A DNA stretch of 64,000 nucleotides. Source: Naegleria gruberi (taxonomy: Eukaryota). Made by a program: the position numbers and the translations under genes. The notes below the pieces were generated by a model, which saw nothing but the letters and a program-made list of their open reading frames with translations, was not told the DNA's origin and made no database searches. Each line of letters opens with the position of its first letter. Position 1 is the first letter of the stretch. The stretch is from NCBI GenBank assembly GCA_000004985.1, contig GG738859.1; one strand, 5' to 3'. Positions 2,926 to 19,288 of the stretch are shown here, piece after piece.

Positions 2926-4015
2926 ATGTATTCCAAACATTTTCTTTCATTCTGTTGTTTCTTTCTGTTGCTGCTATCTTTCTATCAACAACACCAGTTG
3001 TACTCAGTAACCAATGCTCAATTATCCTCCGTTCAATTCAATCAAGCTGTAGATGCAGCTTTAAGCAAGTTAGTTGCCGACAGTTCCTTTCAAAATTACA
3101 TCTATGATGGTATGTTGTTTGTTATCTTGAATATCATCCATACATATGAACCATGCTGAATGAATTTCTCTAACCATTTTCACAAGCCATTGCTTTCCCT
3201 GTTCCAACATGTGCAACACCAACCTCCTTTCCAACAATTAATCCCATTCCAAGTAATGTTTCAACTATCAAGATGTGTTATGATGGAGCTGGTTATATTT
3301 CTGAACCGTGGCTTTCCATTTACAAATCAGTGGTATGTTTATTTCTTGTTTCATCTCTCATAAAAATTGGAATTGTTGTGTTTAGGGAAATGGAATTGTG
3401 AAATATTTAAATAGTCAATATACAATTCAATTGACAGCATCCTTTGTGATGGTCAATACTGAGAATGGTTATTTCTCCTCAATGAAAAAGGCAGTGGATA
3501 CTGCTGCTTGCGATGTTGCAGTTGCTGACACTACCATTACAACTGAAAGGTCAACCCAAGTCAACTTTGCCAAATGTGCATATGGTTCAACTGCTAATGG
3601 CTTTTTGAGAAATGAATTGGATAATTCCACAATTATGATTTCCACCTTTTCAGATTTGAATAATCCAAATGTTACAGTTGCATTCTATGAAGGAACAATA
3701 TACGAAACTATTGCTAATCAATCACTACCTCTGGCTAAAAAAATTCCTTCAACCTATGATGAACAATTTGATTTACTAACCAAAAACAAGGTTCATGCTA
3801 TAATAGGAGATGGAATTGATTTTTTCCAATTCAAATCTAATAATTTGAAAAGCTGCTCTTCATGTTTTGTCAAGATTTTTGGAGAGAGTGCACCATTTGG
3901 AGTGTTTACTCAAATTACCACTCGTACAAGTGCAAGTGTCAGCTGCCATTTCGAATACTTTTCATTTACTGGACTAGTTTTGATAATTTTATCAACAATG
4001 TTAATGAATTTGTAA
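2926..4015 (+). CDS. secreted solute-binding-protein-like protein (bacterial SBP family 3 / ionotropic-receptor ligand-binding-like fold) with a C-terminal hydrophobic GPI-type tail; 3 exons (~2926-3109, ~3187-3332, ~3386-4015)
   Basis: Exon 1 encodes a cleavable-looking signal peptide (MYSKHFLSFCCFFLLLLSF). Spliced product contains ...KMCYDGAGYISEPWLS...VADTTITTERSTQVNFAKCAY...KVHAIIGDGIDFF, which matches the two-lobe periplasmic amino-acid-binding fold. GTATGT donors and AG acceptors keep the frame. Ends in the hydrophobic tail SFTGLVLIILSTMLMNL. Confidence 0.5.
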
Positions 4016-4169
4016 AGTCTTGGAAAACTATTAGCAATTAACAACCCTCGTAGAATCGGATAAGTTTAATTTACCCTATCAATCACCTCGTACGCACTTT
4101 CTCATTCAAAATAAATAAAACAAATTTTCAATTTCAGAAAATAATAAAATTAAAAAAAAAACACAAGAA

Positions 4170-5423
4170 ATGAAATACGTTAAATTTGGTAATACTGGCT
4201 TGAAAGTTTCTCAAATTTGCTTTGGTAAGTTGATTACTCATATTAATTATAATAATAATTATTAATTATGATCAATTTGATGATGGCTTAATTTTCTCTC
4301 TCGGAATTTTCAAATGGTGATCGGAATTTGATGATCAACAACAAGGTTGTATGAGTTTTGGATCACCAAAGTGGCAACCATGGGTATTGGATGAAGCTCA
4401 ATCATTGCCAATCTTGAAGAAGGCCTGGGATTTGGGTATTAATTTCTTTGATACTGCTGATATGTACTCAAATGGTGAAAGTGAGAGAATTTTGGGTAAA
4501 TTCATCAAGGAGAATAATATCAAGAGAGAGGAAATTGTTATTGCTACCAAGGTTTTCTTCCCTATCGATAAATCTGGTGAGCAAAAGACTCTGTTTAGAA
4601 ATGGTGTGCAAAATCTCGTTCCAAATACTTATGGTTTGTCGAGAAAGCATATCATGCATGCTGTTGAAGATTCTTTGCAAAGATTGGGAACTGATTGTAT
4701 GTATTTATTAATCATGATAATGTCGAATCATAATTCTAATATAATTTGCTTTGGAATAATTTGGAATAATTTCAAAAAGATATTGATTTGTATATTATTC
4801 ACCGTTGGGACAATAATACCCCAATTGAGGAAACAATGGAAGCTCTTCATGATTTGGTCAAGTCTGGAAAGGTCAGACATATTGGTGCTTCATCTATGTG
4901 GGCATGGCAATTCGCAAAGGCACAACACGTTGCAGAAATGAAGGGCTGGACAAAGTTTGTCTCCATGCAAAATCTCTACAATTTACTCTATAGAGAGGAA
5001 GAAAGAGATATGATTCCATTGTGTAAGGATCAATTGACAACATGCACACCTTGGTCACCAATCTCACGTGGAATTCTTGCCAGAGCTCACGAATTTGCCG
5101 ACTCAACCCAAATTGAAGGATCTTCCACTAGAGCTACCACTGATCCATTTGCAAAGCAATTCGAAAAGGAATTAACAGAGGGTGATAAGGAAACTTTGAG
5201 AAGAGTCTCTGAGATTGCCAAAAAGAAGGACGTCACCCCTGCTCAAATCGCCATTGCTTGGTTGTTGACCAAGCCTTATGTTTCTGCTCCAGTGGTGGGT
5301 GTTACCAAGATTGAAAATGTAGAGTTGAATGTTGCTGCAACAGAAATTGTCTTTACTGAGGAAGAAATTAAGCATTTGGAAGGTGCTTACGTTACTAAGG
5401 CTGTTCAAGGTGCATTGCAATAA
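4170..5423 (+). CDS. aldo-keto reductase family protein (aryl-alcohol dehydrogenase / pyridoxal reductase-like); 3 exons (~4170-4224, ~4346-4696, ~4780-5423)
   Basis: MKYVKFGNTGLKVSQICFG | CMSFGSPKW...FFDTADMYSNGESERILG...LQRLGTD | YIDLYIIHRWD...HIGASSMWAWQ... These are AKR motifs. GTAAGT/GTATGT donors and AG acceptors restore the frame. Confidence 0.8.
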
Positions 5424-14408: not shown

Positions 14409-16931
14409 ATGGTTTATGTTAACGAGGAAATTGAACAAGCTAAAGAAAAGGTTTTGAATGAATTGGGTTATGCTCCAATGGCCATTGTTCTTGGAAGTGG
14501 TCTTGGTGATTTTCCAAAAGTACTTTTAAATGCTAAAAAGTTATCCTACTCTCAAATTCCACACATGCCACAAACATCAGTTCAAGGTCACTCTGGAGAA
14601 TTGATTCTTGGTGAATTGCCAACCAATGATAATCAAAAGAGACTTATTTACTGTTTTGCTGGAAGAATTCACTCATATGAAGGAGGTCCTTGGGATGAAG
14701 TTACCTTCCAAGTTAAATTGATGGCTTCAATTGGTTGTAAACTTTTTATCATGACAAATGCAAGTGGTGGTCTTTTTGATGAAATGAGTGGAGGTTGTTT
14801 GTGTTTATTGACAGGTCATTTCCGTTTATTAGCAAGAATGGATCCAAACAGTCTTGCACCTGGGGCTAGAGTTTCAAATGGTCAATTATTAGAAACTAGT
14901 TTTGAAAAGAATGAACAAATTTCACAAATTGAAGACAAGTACTCACACTTTGCTCCAGATTATTGGACTTCCAAGTATGTTAATTTGTGTAGAAGTGTTG
15001 CCAAGGAGCAAGGTATTAAATTATTCGAAGGTTCTTATGCTTGGGCTAGTGGTCCTTCATTTGAAACTCCACTCGAAGTTTTGATGGCTAAACAATTGGG
15101 AGGTGCTTGTGTTGGTATGTCAACTGTTCCTGAAATGCTCACATGTAATTATTATGGAATGGAATGTATGGGTATTAGTATGGTTTGTAATTTGGGAGCT
15201 GGTTTGCAAACTGAACCACTCACTCACAAGGAAGTTTTAGAAAATTCCAAGATTGGTACTGAACATATGCAATTGTTGGTTAAGGAAACTCTTTCCAAGA
15301 TTGATTTTGATGAAGCCACTCCACAAACTACCACCACCACTGAATATCTTCCACTCAGAAAGAATGAATCCACTCACAAACTCACAGCTGAATCTATTGC
15401 AAAGGCTGCTGAAATTATTAGAGTAACTTTGGGAGAAATTGACTCGGTTCAAATGAATGTCTATTGTACTCTTCCAGATGCTCCAAATGTTAGTGAACTC
15501 GAAAATAAGGTCGACTTGATGACTCTTCCACAATTCCCATACAGTACTGCCTCTGGTAATTTTGGTTACTTTACCAAGAATTCCAAGAATCAACTCACCT
15601 TGATTACCAATACTCACTCCAGTTTGGACAATACATTGACCACTGAAGAATCTACTTACATTGCTTTGGTTCTCAACTTACTCAACATTCCAAACGTTGC
15701 CTACTTTGTCAAGTGTTCTGATTCAAAGGTTGTTCCAGGTGTCACCCAACAAGAAATTACCAACGTTACCAACTTTGGTTACTATGAACCATTAGAATAC
15801 GTTGAAACAGTTTACAGAACTTCTGAACGTTTCGTTGATACTACCAGCAAAGATACCAAGAAGAATTCCTACATGGCCTTTATGGGTCCTGATTTACCTT
15901 GTGCTATGGAATGTCACACTGCTGAAGAATTGGGTCATGCTGTTTATGGTGTTACCTCTCTTGCTTTGCATAATTCTTTGAAGTATTTGGGTTTCAATGT
16001 CAAGACTTTTGTTGAATTTGTTGGTGCTCCAGAAAAGAATGCTGTTCAAATTGAAAATGTTGCTACTAGAACTGTCAAGCAAGTTGATATTGAACAAAAC
16101 CACAAGCTTCACTATCAAATGCTCAAGATTAGTGAAATTGAAGAAGCCACTCAGTTTGTAAAGGAACAATTGGAACTCACTGATAAGAATATTGAATCTG
16201 TTATTCTCGATTTGAACTTGAATTTGCCATTCACTCAACATGAAAATATCAAGATTATCAAGTCTGTTCCATTCAAGAATATTCCACATCTCCAAACTGA
16301 ATTTGGTCAAACTCTCTCATTGGCCACTATTGGTGATAAGCACATTTTGGTTGTTCACCATATTGATCAATCTGATGAAAGCACTTATTTGCGTAGTAAT
16401 TCATTGATTGAATTGTCATTCATTATCAGAGTTTGTCAACATTTGCACACTGTTAATAATATTTATCTCAATAGTGCTGTTGTCAGTGCTCTCAATTCAA
16501 ACTTTGAACCAATTTATACTCCAAACACATTAGTTCAATACCGTGATCACATTAACTTTACCGGATACAATCCATTGATTGGTAAGAATGAAAACAGATG
16601 GGGTGATAGATTCTTTGATGTTTCAGGATTGTACAGACCACTCAAGACCTCAACTAAGGTTGAAACTACCAATGTCATGTATGCCAATCACATTCTCCAA
16701 CTTGATAATAAGGAATTACGTTCTACTGTCTCTAAATTCAACGTTAACGTCTTGAGTTCTGTTGGTGGATATGAAGCTCTCGTTGCTCACCACGATGTCA
16801 AGCCAAAGGAAGAAAGAGTCAGATGTGTTTCATTGGGATTGGTTATTAATGAAAATTCTGAAAAGTTAATTTGTCCAGAAAAGAAGAAGGAATTAATCAC
16901 CACTCTCTGTAATGATATTTTAGGATTGTAA
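14409..16931 (+). CDS. multi-domain purine nucleoside phosphorylase (PNP/MTAP family) protein with three tandem PNP-like domains (840 aa, single exon)
   Basis: Domain 1 (aa ~20-290): MAIVLGSGLGDF...HMPQTSVQGHSGELILG...GRIHSYEG...IMTNASGGL...SGPSFETPLEV...GGACVGMSTVPEM (canonical trimeric PNP motifs). Domain 2 (~330-575) is degenerate (PQFPYSTASGNFGYF...HAVYGVTSLALHN). Domain 3 (~590-840) retains RDHINFTGYNPLIGKNENRWGDRFFDVSGLY, matching the PNP [34 protein letters not shown] loop. Each domain is ~270 aa. Confidence 0.75.
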   Translation: MVYVNEEIEQAKEKVLNELGYAPMAIVLGSGLGDFPKVLLNAKKLSYSQIPHMPQTSVQGHSGELILGELPTNDNQKRLIYCFAGRIHSYEGGPWDEVTFQVKLMASIGCKLFIMTNASGGLFDEMSGGCLCLLTGHFRLLARMDPNSLAPGARVSNGQLLETSFEKNEQISQIEDKYSHFAPDYWTSKYVNLCRSVAKEQGIKLFEGSYAWASGPSFETPLEVLMAKQLGGACVGMSTVPEMLTCNYYGMECMGISMVCNLGAGLQTEPLTHKEVLENSKIGTEHMQLLVKETLSKIDFDEATPQTTTTTEYLPLRKNESTHKLTAESIAKAAEIIRVTLGEIDSVQMNVYCTLPDAPNVSELENKVDLMTLPQFPYSTASGNFGYFTKNSKNQLTLITNTHSSLDNTLTTEESTYIALVLNLLNIPNVAYFVKCSDSKVVPGVTQQEITNVTNFGYYEPLEYVETVYRTSERFVDTTSKDTKKNSYMAFMGPDLPCAMECHTAEELGHAVYGVTSLALHNSLKYLGFNVKTFVEFVGAPEKNAVQIENVATRTVKQVDIEQNHKLHYQMLKISEIEEATQFVKEQLELTDKNIESVILDLNLNLPFTQHENIKIIKSVPFKNIPHLQTEFGQTLSLATIGDKHILVVHHIDQSDESTYLRSNSLIELSFIIRVCQHLHTVNNIYLNSAVVSALNSNFEPIYTPNTLVQYRDHINFTGYNPLIGKNENRWGDRFFDVSGLYRPLKTSTKVETTNVMYANHILQLDNKELRSTVSKFNVNVLSSVGGYEALVAHHDVKPKEERVRCVSLGLVINENSEKLICPEKKKELITTLCNDILGL

Positions 16932-17061
16932 ATAGATATTATAAAGTATATTTATTAAGTTGGTTGGTCTCACTAATTTTTCTCACACTAAATCACTAGA
17001 TGGTTGATGAAGAATAATTCATTCTCGAAGAAGATAGGTACAAAATGAATACATGTATCAT

Positions 17062-19288
17062 TTAAAGAGCTTCTCGACGAGTCATGGTCAATAATTGTTG
17101 AGCATAATTCATACAGACCTTTTCACTCTCACTCATCCATTTGCCTTCTCTTCTCTCCTTCAATTTGGTCTGAATAATTTGAGCCCATTGTTGATCACAT
17201 TGAGCAAAGTGTTGCAACATTTTATCAATCACTCTTTGTTCAGTCACTCTAAAGAAGCTGGCAGCAATATTATCACACAAATTATTCTTATCCTTCTCTG
17301 GGAGAATCTTCCAGAAATCAGCAACTTGAGAATACAAATCCTCGAAAGAACCTTCATTTGGAACTTCATACAGACCACAATTTCCAGTAACCTTAAATGG
17401 TGGATCAATGTATTTGGCATTTGGTTTCAAACCTCCAAAGGCACTTCCAGTATAGTGAGGGAAGGAATCATTGATTGGAATGTACATGTTACCACCCAGG
17501 TAATTATTCATTGGTTCAATGCCATGTGGACGATTGACATAGAGTTGCTTAAAGTTTGGACCAATACGATGAATTTGAGTATAATCATAAATTAATAATC
17601 TTCCTTGCAATAGCTATTAACGAAAAACATGTATAAATATTTCAAACTCATGAACAAGTAAACTTACCTTATCAGGACTCAATCCAATTCCAGGAACAAC
17701 AGTAGCAGGAGAGAAGGCCACTTGTTCAACCTCTGTGAAATAATCCACAACATTTCTATTCACCTCCAACGTACCAACCTCAATCAATGGATAATCTGCA
17801 TGTTTCCAAACCTTTGTAGCATCAAATGTCCATGGATGTTTGTAACCTTCCTCCTCTGGCATGACCTGAATCATCATCTTCCAACGAGGGAAATTCTGTT
17901 TCTCAATTGACTGATACAAATCACGAGAAAGGAAATTTGGATCCTCACCTGCTACTAATTTTGCTTCATGTTGATTGAAACCGAAAGCTCCTTGTTGAGA
18001 AACTAAATGGAATTTGACCCAGAAACGTTCTTTGGCAGAGTTGACCAATGAGAAAGTGTGGCAACCATAAGCATTCATGGTTCTGTAGGAAAGAGGAGTT
18101 CCAGTTCGATCTGTGAAGAGCATGGCCATTTGATGGAGTCCTTCTGGGTGGTTGGCAACATAGTCCCAGGTTTGGGTAATGTTCCAGCAACCAGTTCTTG
18201 GATCACGTTTGAAAGCATGGACTTGGTCTGTGTGGTTGAGGAAGAATGTAGAGTTTAGTTGTTGGAAAGGTTTAGTTTGAAAAATTGTTAGTGGAAAGTG
18301 AAATAAACAACTTACCTGGACCTGCTTTGGCATCTCTGACAGCAAAGACAGGAGTGTTGATGCCCAATAAATCCCAGTTACCTTCCTTAGTATAGAATTT
18401 GATAGCGAATCCTCTTGGCTTGGAAATTGAAAAAATGATATTCGAAAGTCAATATTAAACTTAAAAACTTACATCTCTTGTAGTTTCTGGATCTCCAACT
18501 TCAGTAAAGATACCAGAAAATCTAGTAATAAATTGAGTTGACTTTCCAACTTGATTAAACAAATCAGCACAAGTATACTTGGAAATGTCATTTGTCACAG
18601 TAAATGTACCATAAGCACCAGTTCCCAAAGCATGTACATTTCTTGGAGGAATCTTTTCAGTATTGAAATGTTGAAGCTTTTCTAACAAATCCAAATCTTG
18701 AACACAAAGTGGACCTTGACTGCCAGATGTTAAAGAATCCTTGACATGACCAATTGGACAACCTGTTTGTCTTGTAATGATATTTTGTCTGTTAATTTCA
18801 TTTTGTTCAATCACACCTGGAATTTTACCAAATTGCTTACTGACTTCCTTGGAAGTGAATGAGTCTGAACCATATCCAAGCGGACATTTTAATTGTTGTG
18901 ATAATTGACTACTTTCAAGTCCTTGTTCTTGTTGAAGCTTTGGTTGAGTGGATTGAATTCCAGATGGTTGTAATCCAGAAGTTTGCTTTCCATATTGTTG
19001 TTGTTGAAGTTGTGGTTGTTGTTGCAGTTGTTGTGGTTGCTGTTGAAGTTGTGGTTGATTGGGTTGTTGTAAGCCAACCTGTTGTTGTTGTACTCCAGTT
19101 GGTGATTGTTGCATTCCAGTTGGAGATTGTTGTGATTGTTGTGATTGTTGTTGAGTGGAAGATAAATGAGAAGGTCTGAAGGCACCACTAGCATACGTTG
19201 GTGAAAAACCTTGTTGTTGCTGAGTGGGTGATTTCTGTTGTAAACCACCCTGTTGTTGTTGAGGTGATTGTGGTTGGTTTGATTGCAT
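17062..19288 (-). CDS. catalase (monofunctional, heme) with ~170-aa Gln-rich N-terminal extension; 4 exons (~19288-18473, ~18418-18315, ~18227-17668, ~17613-17062)
   Basis: ...[33 protein letters not shown]...ETTRD | [34 protein letters not shown] | [13 protein letters not shown]...SPDK | [21 protein letters not shown]..., collinear with catalases. Introns have GTAAGT donors. The N-terminus [15 protein letters not shown]... is encoded by a CAA/CAG-rich region. Confidence 0.85.

What the first reader, a model, noticed from the sequence alone, without database searches (positions are those of the whole stretch)
2926..4015. Stand-alone secreted bacterial-type solute-binding-protein domain with GPI-like tail
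The spliced product has a signal peptide, one periplasmic-binding-protein type II domain most similar to bacterial amino-acid-binding proteins / iGluR ligand-binding cores, and a C-terminal hydrophobic tail typical of GPI attachment. There is no channel or 7TM part. Free-standing eukaryotic SBP domains are uncommon and may be amino-acid sensors or a product of horizontal transfer. The gene has spliceosomal introns, so it is host-resident.
Basis: partly seen in the sequence, partly recalled or inferred. Interest (0 to 1): 0.5.

Follow-up and report, generated by a model that had tools for sequence, protein, structure and literature searches.

The report
Permuted surface amino-acid-binding protein, Naegleria
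This is a real three-exon gene of the amoeba Naegleria gruberi, absent from the protein collection searched, that encodes a stand-alone bacterial-type amino-acid-binding "flytrap" domain with a GPI-like membrane tail; it belongs to a large unstudied protist family in which the last helix of the bacterial fold sits at the front.

Summary

Three things are new. It belongs to a large family in Naegleria, Willaertia, Heterolobosea sp. BB2 and metagenomes. The fold appears circularly permuted: the N-terminal helix matches the C-terminal helix of bacterial binding proteins, and the order is colinear with the junction of tandem bacterial domains. The same ectodomain is fused to a membrane span and a protein kinase in other protists.

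The likely function is a GPI-anchored surface amino-acid binder, perhaps a sensor. The GPI anchor, the ligand and the role are inferred. There is no sign of recent horizontal transfer.

The parts
2926..3109 (+). Exon 1 (aa 1-61 plus the first base of codon 62). It encodes the signal peptide and the permuted N-terminal helices.
   Evidence: Splice model. In-frame stop upstream of the ATG. Conserved with homologues.
2926..3018 (+). Predicted signal peptide (aa 1-31): n-region MYSKH, hydrophobic core FLSFCCFFLLLLSF, possible cleavage after T-N-A31.
   Evidence: Hydropathy maximum 2.34 over aa 3-21. Homologues also start with hydrophobic segments. The cleavage site is inferred by the -3/-1 rule, not by a predictor.
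3031..3109 (+). N-terminal helix pair (aa 36-61 of helices 36-51 and 53-63), homologous to the C-terminal helices of bacterial class-F binding proteins. This is the permuted segment.
   Evidence: A 40-position profile of this segment alone hits class-F binding proteins at their C-terminal ~30 residues (E 1.3e-6, 1.8e-5). pLDDT is 93-98 here.
3110..3186 (+). Intron 1, 77 nt, GT..AG, phase 1.
   Evidence: 8-nt and 1-nt deletions in the 98%-identical allele fall here.
3187..3332 (+). Exon 2 (aa 62-110): Cys70 linker and first strand of lobe 1.
3333..3385 (+). Intron 2, 53 nt, GT..AG, phase 0.
   Evidence: A 3-nt deletion in the allele falls here.
3386..4015 (+). Exon 3 (aa 111-319 plus the TAA stop): most of the binding domain and the C-terminal tail.
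3261..3913 (+). Bilobed class-F solute-binding core (aa 87-286; the span includes intron 2).
3548..3550 (+). Codon of Arg165 in the motif DTTITTER. It aligns with the arginine of the bacterial '...TITPER/TITEER...' motif.
   Evidence: Alignment to AncCDT-1 and AncQR. R in 44 of 45 family members. That this arginine binds the alpha-carboxylate is from knowledge of GlnBP/HisJ/iGluR structures, not tested here.
3929..4012 (+). GPI-signal-like C-terminus (aa 292-319): small residues S292-A-S294, spacer VSCHFEY, then 18 hydrophobic residues FSFTGLVLIILSTMLMNL ending the protein.
   Evidence: The same architecture is seen in 59 of 82 relatives with a complete C-terminus.

Best explanation
The gene encodes a cell-surface, lipid-anchored amino-acid-binding protein. 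It is a member of a protist family of circularly permuted class-F solute-binding ('Venus flytrap') domains.

Shown here: the gene and its splicing; residence in N. gruberi; the bilobed fold; the stand-alone architecture; family membership; and sequence evidence that the N-terminal helix pair corresponds to the C-terminal helices of bacterial binding proteins.

Inferred: the N-terminal signal directs the protein into the ER. It then folds with three disulfides (C70-C174, C92-C152, C267-C270) and N-glycans. The C-terminal hydrophobic peptide is exchanged for a GPI anchor near S292/S294, leaving the flytrap on the outer face of the plasma membrane. The cleft between the lobes closes on an alpha-amino acid or a close derivative, held by Arg165, Thr160 and Asp252.

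Most speculative: the loaded, closed form reports bacterial-prey or nutrient amino acids to a membrane-spanning partner. The basis is that the same ectodomain is wired directly to a transmembrane helix and protein kinase in related protists.
For: Gene and host:
- Splice model.
- Within the gene, indels of the 98%-identical allele fall only in introns.
- Exact N. gruberi neighbours.
- Synteny with N. lovaniensis catalase and PNP_UDP_1 genes.

Fold:
- pLDDT 91.8, pTM 0.84.
- Foldseek E 1.8e-13.
- Profile E 3.9e-34 against solved structures.

Permutation:
- The N-terminal segment profile alone finds class-F binding proteins only at their C-termini.
- The full profile aligns colinearly from the SBD1 C-terminal helix into the SBD2 core of tandem GlnPQ 6h30 (profile 29-261 = chain 196-405, E 1.1e-25).
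- It also aligns across junctions of tandem bacterial proteins.
- 67 of 150 representatives have the helix before the core and none after it. Single bacterial proteins have it after the core.
- After the last core strand the protein goes straight to the tail.

Anchor:
- The hydrophobic stretch reaches the last residue in the window protein and in most full-length relatives, preceded by small residues.

Ligand:
- R165 in 44/45 members, D/E252 in 38/45, T/S160 in 22/45, aligned to the ligand-contacting motifs.
- The model superposes best on closed, ligand-bound structures.

Sensor idea:
- P0146, P0149 and P0162 (the last from Cavostelium apophysatum) carry the same ectodomain plus a membrane span and PK_Tyr_Ser-Thr domain, E 1e-55 to 1e-74.
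Against: - The single sequence falls just below Pfam's curated SBP_bac_3 cut-off (23.5 against 26.4 bits).
- No GPI predictor could be run and no experimental data exist, so a C-terminal transmembrane anchor cannot be excluded.
- I could not obtain model coordinates. The placement of the N-terminal helices at the site of the bacterial C-terminal helices is therefore inferred from sequence homology and high pLDDT, not from a superposition.
- Thr160 is only moderately conserved, and position 158 is Asp where GlnBP has Gly, so the ligand may not be a plain amino acid.
- No signalling partner is identified.
- The gene has no model in the protein collection searched and no expression evidence was available.
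Confidence: 0.6

Rival explanations
1. Same ectodomain, but anchored as a type I membrane protein by its C-terminal hydrophobic helix (tail-less transmembrane anchor) rather than by GPI.
For: AlphaFold draws residues 301-318 as a helix. Some homologues have a few polar residues after the hydrophobic stretch, such as P0002 ...EMFSKP and P0003 ...HMMMSD. Relatives with a true transmembrane span plus kinase exist.
Against: In the window protein and in most relatives the hydrophobic stretch runs to the last residue or leaves 0-6 residues. It is preceded by a Ser/Ala/Gly-rich site and a 5-10-residue spacer, which is the GPI-signal layout.
Confidence: 0.25
2. The protein serves nutrient capture rather than signalling. 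It concentrates amino acids at the surface or in phagosomes/endosomes and hands them to a transporter, as bacterial binding proteins do for ABC importers.
For: The closest solved relatives are ABC-transporter binding proteins, with conserved Arg/Asp ligand residues. Naegleria feeds on bacteria (general knowledge).
Against: No binding-protein-dependent permease was found among the six neighbouring ORFs scanned; the adjacent genes are an aldo/keto reductase and a protein with no Pfam domain. Binding-protein-dependent ABC importers are not known in eukaryotes (general knowledge). Kinase-fused relatives point to sensing.
Confidence: 0.3
3. It is an enzyme derived from the binding fold, like cyclohexadienyl/arogenate dehydratase, rather than a binding protein.
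For: Cyclohexadienyl dehydratases and their reconstructed ancestors are among the top sequence and fold matches.
Against: The very top matches (AncCDT-1, AncQR) are non-catalytic, consensus-like reconstructed amino-acid binders. Extant dehydratases score lower (E 1e-14 to 1e-24 against 4e-34). The Arg/Asp pair typical of amino-acid binders is kept. Catalytic residues were not examined.
Confidence: 0.05
4. A recent bacterial transfer, a contaminant or a decaying pseudogene rather than a functional host gene.
For: A bacterial-type domain, and no gene model in the protein collection searched.
Against: Two spliceosomal introns. GC content like the rest of the window. Exact N. gruberi genes on both sides. 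Synteny with N. lovaniensis. Homologues in three Naegleria species, Willaertia and Heterolobosea sp. BB2. Best bacterial identity about 25%. The ORF is intact, and a second strain has indels only in introns within the gene.
Confidence: 0.03

Closest known systems
Bacterial class-F (Pfam SBP_bac_3) amino-acid-binding proteins of ABC importers: GlnBP/GlnH, HisJ/LAO, ArtJ and the reconstructed AncQR/AncCDT-1
   Different: Eukaryotic gene with introns. The C-terminal helix pair is moved to the N-terminus. Three conserved disulfides and N-glycan sequons. GPI-like tail instead of a free or lipoprotein form. No ABC permease partner nearby.
Tandem substrate-binding domains of GlnPQ-type transporters (PDB 6h30) and multi-SBD permease fusions
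   Same: The window protein's order (helix pair, about 25-residue linker, core) is colinear with 'end of SBD n, start of SBD n+1'. This is the arrangement expected of the intermediate in permutation by duplication.
   Different: Those are bacterial, carry 2-7 complete domains and are fused to a BPD_transp_1 permease. Here there is one permuted unit and no permease.
Ligand-binding cores of ionotropic glutamate receptors (GluR0, AvGluR1, plant GLR3.4, NMDA/AMPA/kainate)
   Different: There is no channel inserted between the S1 and S2 halves. Profile and fold scores are weaker than to the bacterial binders. The 'DGTY..I..KWF'-type helix is a feature of the bacterial proteins.
GPI-anchored ligand-binding co-receptors such as GFR-alpha (with RET) or CNTFR-alpha. 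Functional analogy only, from general knowledge.
   Same: A lipid-anchored extracellular binding module that would need a membrane-spanning partner to signal.
   Different: Unrelated folds. No partner is known here, and the analogy is untested.
Flytrap-ectodomain receptor kinases and cyclases (natriuretic peptide receptors) and bacterial SBP-linked Ser/Thr kinases (NCBIfam StpK7)
   Same: Relatives P0146, P0149 and P0162 couple the same ectodomain through one membrane span to a protein kinase. NCBIfam StpK7 matched the binding domains of three relatives scanned (P0133, P0160, P0180).
   Different: The window protein has no kinase or membrane-spanning part. Natriuretic peptide receptors use a type-I rather than a type-II flytrap (general knowledge).

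Membership tests
Class-F / type-II solute-binding proteins (Pfam PF00497 SBP_bac_3) | Significant match to the family profile | tested here: inconclusive
   The single sequence gives E 5.1e-5 but 23.5 bits, below the 26.4-bit gathering score. 31 of 45 family members match at E up to 2.5e-29. The family profile against solved class-F proteins gives E 3.9e-34.
Class-F / type-II solute-binding proteins (Pfam PF00497 SBP_bac_3) | Two alpha/beta lobes joined by a two-strand hinge (flytrap fold) | tested here: met
Class-F / type-II solute-binding proteins (Pfam PF00497 SBP_bac_3) | Canonical chain order: first strand at the N-terminus, 'DGTY..I..KWF' helix pair at the C-terminus | tested here: not met
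   The helix pair is at aa 36-63, before the core. The C-terminus goes from the last core strand straight to the tail. This is a permuted variant.
Class-F / type-II solute-binding proteins (Pfam PF00497 SBP_bac_3) | Residues that hold the alpha-carboxylate and alpha-amino groups (Arg of TIT.ER, Thr/Ser before it, Asp after the second hinge) | tested here: met
   R165 (44/45), T160 (T/S 22/45) and D252 (D/E 38/45) by alignment. Ligand binding itself was not tested.
Class-F / type-II solute-binding proteins (Pfam PF00497 SBP_bac_3) | Works with an adjacent ABC permease/ATPase | tested here: not met
   The adjacent genes are a 451-aa protein with no Pfam domain and an aldo/keto reductase. None of the six neighbouring ORFs scanned is a permease.
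Ionotropic glutamate receptor ligand-binding core (PF10613 + PF00060) | Profile match above cut-off, and a channel inserted between the two halves of the domain | tested here: not met
   Lig_chan-Glu_bd E 0.008, 16.7 bits against a 30-bit cut-off. There are no internal hydrophobic segments, and the ORF ends at 4015 with a reductase gene next.
GPI-anchored proteins | N-terminal ER signal peptide | tested here: met
   Positive n-region and a 14-residue hydrophobic core by hydropathy, seen also in homologues. This is a heuristic; no SignalP-type predictor was available.
GPI-anchored proteins | C-terminal signal: small omega / omega+2 residues, a 5-10-residue spacer, and a 15-20-residue hydrophobic stretch ending the protein | tested here: met
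   S292-A-S294 / VSCHFEY / FSFTGLVLIILSTMLMNL. A similar layout occurs in 59 of 82 relatives, 40 of them with small-residue candidates under a crude rule.
GPI-anchored proteins | Score from a trained predictor (NetGPI, PredGPI, big-PI) | not tested
GPI-anchored proteins | Actual GPI attachment (PI-PLC release, anchor mass spectrometry) and a GPI transamidase in the organism | not testable with these tools
   One pangenome paper mentions 'evidence of GPI-anchored proteins' in Naegleria without detail (PMC9928731).
Cyclohexadienyl dehydratase (PheC/CDT) | Catalytic residues and dehydratase activity | not tested
   Only overall similarity was seen. Extant dehydratases score below the non-catalytic binders.

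The most novel reading that the evidence does not exclude
Amoeboid protists independently recruited a bacterial amino-acid-binding flytrap, circularly permuted through a tandem-domain intermediate. They built a chemosensory system from it: dozens of fast-evolving GPI-anchored binders in Naegleria that act as exchangeable ligand-binding subunits, and one-piece flytrap receptor kinases in other lineages. This would be a third eukaryotic use of this fold in signalling, beside iGluRs and class C GPCRs, and a candidate for how amoebae smell bacterial prey.
Probability: 0.25. Interest if true: 0.8.

Novelty: new variant of a known kind. Interest (0 to 1): 0.6.

Why it matters
Flytrap domains of bacterial origin underlie glutamate receptors and class C GPCRs, so each independent recruitment shows how eukaryotic sensing evolved. 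This locus shows a stand-alone, apparently lipid-anchored version in a free-living amoeba, with relatives in the pathogen N. fowleri. The family has a natural circular permutation that leaves the C-terminus free for a membrane anchor or a transmembrane-kinase extension. If the ligands are amino acids, the family is a concrete candidate for prey or nutrient sensing in Naegleria, where the receptors are unknown. The permuted scaffold could also be useful for biosensor engineering. In practical terms, the N. gruberi protein set in the collection searched lacks this gene.

Tried and rejected
- A first AlphaFold run with only the five Naegleria sequences gave pLDDT 57 and was discarded.
- The two word-indexed homologue searches with Naegleria queries found only Naegleria proteins and the metagenome allele, which wrongly suggested a tiny family. 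A third search with the 45-sequence profile added only two BB2 proteins and seven weak bacterial matches. The exhaustive representative search corrected the picture.
- The AlphaFold-database fold library was not available, so eukaryotic structural relatives could not be listed.
- Look-up of the N. gruberi paralogue P0005 on contigs failed.
- I suspected that P0133 is a prokaryotic permuted form, because it is acidic, has a tail ending in RRKK and sits on a compact contig. NCBIfam gave no sorting-signal hit. A scan of 185,579 prokaryote genomes found only ordinary binding proteins matching its core. Its origin stays open, and no prokaryotic permuted form was demonstrated.
- There is no paralogue elsewhere in the 64-kb window.
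- Nine literature searches found nothing on this family.
- A formal phylogeny against iGluR cores was not attempted, because no iGluR sequences could be obtained. Relative profile and fold scores were used instead.

Full report
**What is at the coordinates**

The region 2926-4015 (+) reads as a three-exon gene: 2926-3109, 3187-3332 and 3386-4015. Both introns begin GTATGT and end AG. They are 77 and 53 nt long and in phase 1 and 0. The joined CDS is 960 nt and the product 319 aa. ATG 2926 follows an in-frame stop 14 codons upstream.

Three independent results support the model. First, the junction-spanning sequence (…SFQNYIYD|A|IAFPVPTC…, …IYKSV|GNG…) is conserved in homologues, and the N. lovaniensis homologue P0002 is encoded by a single uninterrupted 1017-nt ORF. 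Second, a metagenome contig (ERZ929261) is 98.06% identical over 1134 aligned bases. Within the gene all its indels (8+1 nt and 3 nt) fall inside the predicted introns, while the 793 exon bases compared carry seven substitutions and no indel. Third, no other copy exists in the window.

**Whose gene it is**

Four neighbouring window ORFs are letter-for-letter proteins of Naegleria gruberi NEG-M (EFC46410.1, EFC46420.1, EFC46299.1, EFC46294.1), on a 530-kb scaffold. GC content is 0.31-0.38 throughout.

The locus shares catalase, PNP_UDP_1 and two smaller genes with an N. lovaniensis contig that carries three copies of the homologue. Catalase blocks are 68-82% identical in that comparison, but the binding proteins only 42-48%. 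This is a fast-evolving gene.

The exact 319-aa protein is not in the 15-billion-protein collection. No N. gruberi model with high identity was returned; only a 48%-identical paralogue on another scaffold, P0005. The gene therefore appears to be missing from the reference annotation.

**The domain**

On its own the protein scores SBP_bac_3 at E 5.1e-5, 23.5 bits, just under the 26.4-bit cut-off. Lig_chan-Glu_bd scores E 0.008. The best solved relative is AncCDT-1 at E 1.1e-6.

An exhaustive profile search of 1.84 billion representatives found 231 proteins at E ≤ 1e-3 and 100 at E ≤ 1e-10. A 45-sequence alignment of these (A2) gave three results:
- Profile E 3.9e-34 to AncCDT-1 and 349 solved class-F relatives.
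- SBP_bac_3 matches in 31 of 45 members, against 9 of 45 for Lig_chan-Glu_bd.
- An AlphaFold model with pLDDT 91.8 and pTM 0.84. A five-sequence alignment had given only pLDDT 57.

**Architecture**

The only hydrophobic segments are aa 3-21 and aa 299-319. There are four N-glycosylation sequons and six conserved cysteines in the mature part. Across the family the cysteines are lost in pairs, which suggests disulfides C70-C174, C92-C152 and C267-C270.

The ORF stops at 4013-4015. The next gene starts at 4170 with its own ATG and is an aldo/keto reductase. Homologues in other species end at the same point with a similar tail.

**GPI-like tail**

After the last core strand (…FGVFTQ) come ITTRT-S292-A-S294, the spacer VSCHFEY, and 18 hydrophobic residues that end the protein. 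In 59 of 82 relatives with a complete C-terminus a 13-33-residue hydrophobic stretch likewise runs to, or nearly to, the last residue. Forty of these have small-residue candidate sites under a crude rule.

This is the canonical GPI-signal layout. However, no trained predictor and no experiment were available, so a tail-less transmembrane anchor remains a live rival.

HMMER reported a second small match: the family's N-terminal helix region against the C-terminal helix of bacterial proteins. I tested this separately. A 40-position profile built only from the N-terminal segments (A3; window aa 33-70, VQFNQAVDAALSKLVADSSFQNYIYD…) was searched against 177,635 solved sequences. It hit almost only class-F binding proteins, always in their last ~30 residues:
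- 6h30, E 1.3e-6.
- 5eyf, residues 209-236 of 245, E 1.8e-5.
- 3vv5, residues 224-255 of 260.
- AncQR, residues 203-231 of 233.
- LAO, HisJ, ArtJ and GlnBP further down the list.

More distant family members still show the bacterial motif plainly, for example …ALKEVMANSEWDTIYYKWF… in P0076.

Among the 150 representatives, 67 have this helix before the core and none after it. Another 32 are bacterial proteins with three or more tandem domains, and the rest are fragments. Single-domain bacterial proteins in the same data set have the helix after the core.

The full family profile aligns without a break from the C-terminal helix of SBD1 into the core of SBD2 in the tandem GlnPQ structure 6h30 (profile 29-261 = chain 196-405, E 1.1e-25). 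It does the same across domain junctions of tandem bacterial proteins P0080, P0137 and P0065. That is the arrangement expected if the permuted unit arose from a tandem duplication trimmed at both ends.

The AlphaFold model builds helices 36-51 and 53-63 with pLDDT 93-98. I could not obtain coordinates to superpose them, so the structural equivalence is inferred.

**The family**

Named members come from:
- N. lovaniensis, with at least seven genes: C9374_005960, 005962, 005968, 002535, 002538, 008029 and 008685.
- N. fowleri: FDP41_000021 and FDP41_012477.
- N. gruberi.
- Willaertia magna: KAL9653165.1.
- Heterolobosea sp. BB2.

Many others come from unnamed metagenome or read-archive assemblies.

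Three relatives carry the same ectodomain followed by a membrane span and a PK_Tyr_Ser-Thr kinase domain (E 1e-55 to 1e-74). These are P0146, P0149 and P0162, the last from the amoebozoan Cavostelium apophysatum. Two-copy tandem forms also exist, P0024 and P0112.

The best bacterial matches share about 25% identity. Together with the introns, the synteny and the spread over at least two eukaryotic supergroups, this argues against a recent transfer. The ultimate bacterial ancestry of the fold is not in doubt.

**Likely ligand and mechanism**

By alignment to AncCDT-1 and AncQR, the window motif D153-VAVADTTITTER165 matches the bacterial D-(I/V)-V-x-(S/A)-G-M-T-I-T-x-E-R motif, and …VHAIIGD252 matches the bacterial …ADA(M/V)VTD motif. 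From published structures of GlnBP, HisJ/LAO and iGluR cores (general knowledge), this Arg binds the alpha-carboxylate, the preceding Thr helps, and the Asp binds the alpha-ammonium.

Across the 45 aligned members, Arg165 is kept in 44, Asp/Glu252 in 38 and Thr/Ser160 in 22. An alpha-amino acid or near derivative is therefore the most likely ligand class, with specificity probably varying among paralogues.

What the loaded protein does next is not shown. I favour a sensing role through an unidentified membrane partner, because relatives wire the same ectodomain directly to a kinase. Nutrient capture is the main alternative.

**Comparison with known systems and novelty**

The protein works like a class-F binding protein, but it fails one defining feature of the family, the chain order. 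It also lacks an ABC partner. It is not an iGluR core, because there is no inserted channel and the scores are weaker.

UniProt automatically labels the Naegleria homologues 'Solute-binding protein family 3/N-terminal domain-containing protein'. No paper on them was found.

I rate it a new variant of a known kind: known fold and likely known chemistry, in a new topology, with a new anchoring mode, in a new and sizeable eukaryotic family.

**Verdict**

Interest is moderate to high (0.6). The main reasons are the natural permutation, the size of the family and the receptor-kinase relatives. Function, GPI attachment and expression remain unproven.

Noticed in passing
window 2926-4015: The 319-aa product is absent from the 15-billion-protein collection, although neighbouring ORFs are exact N. 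gruberi NEG-M proteins. No high-identity N. gruberi model was returned, so the gene seems to be missing from the reference annotation.
   Followed up: partly
L001 (ENA ERZ929261 contig, 1121 nt) = window 3093-4226: An environmental metagenome contig is 98% identical to this locus. That implies a close N. gruberi-like strain in that sample, and it served as a second allele for testing the introns.
   Followed up: yes
L002 11375-12411 (N. lovaniensis PYSW02000026.1): Two adjacent called genes (149 aa and 186 aa = P0006) match the front and back halves of the family protein. They are probably one gene split by an unrecognised intron or a frameshift. The contig carries three family copies within about 11 kb, against one at the syntenic N. 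gruberi locus.
   Followed up: partly
P0005 (N. gruberi paralogue, other scaffold): This annotated paralogue ends abruptly at ...GRFEKLFYF, without the last core strand or the hydrophobic tail. The likely cause is a mis-called 3' exon.
   Followed up: no
window 4170-5423 (+): The downstream gene is an intron-containing aldo/keto reductase. It starts MKYVKFGNTGLKVSQICFG and matches Aldo_ket_red at E 1.6e-42 in its last exon.
   Followed up: partly
window 14409-18810: A PNP_UDP_1-domain protein (840-aa ORF) and a catalase gene lie next to each other, as in N. lovaniensis. Translated blocks are 68-87% identical, far more conserved than the binding-protein gene at 42-48%.
   Followed up: partly
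P0146, P0149, P0162 (the last from Cavostelium apophysatum, EukProt): These are receptor kinases whose ectodomain is the same permuted binding domain: signal, flytrap, one membrane span, PK_Tyr_Ser-Thr domain. I found no description of such receptors in the literature searched.
   Followed up: partly
L003 1470-2480 (P0133, Logan ERR13063753): A very acidic family member has the same helix-first order and a tail ending ...VVLRRKK. It scores much higher against bacterial LAO-type models (143 bits) than the amoebal members do. Its organism is unknown, and no close relative exists in 185,579 prokaryote genomes.
   Followed up: partly
P0041 (557 aa): A complete family unit sits behind about 250 residues that look like an ABC-transporter membrane/ATPase fragment, and Pfam finds no domain. 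It is probably two merged gene models.
   Followed up: no
P0138, P0143 (metagenome): These family members have Cys/Pro-rich C-terminal extensions (…PSCPSAPSCPNCVCPSCPACNCC…) in place of the hydrophobic tail. That suggests another mode of surface attachment or cross-linking.
   Followed up: no
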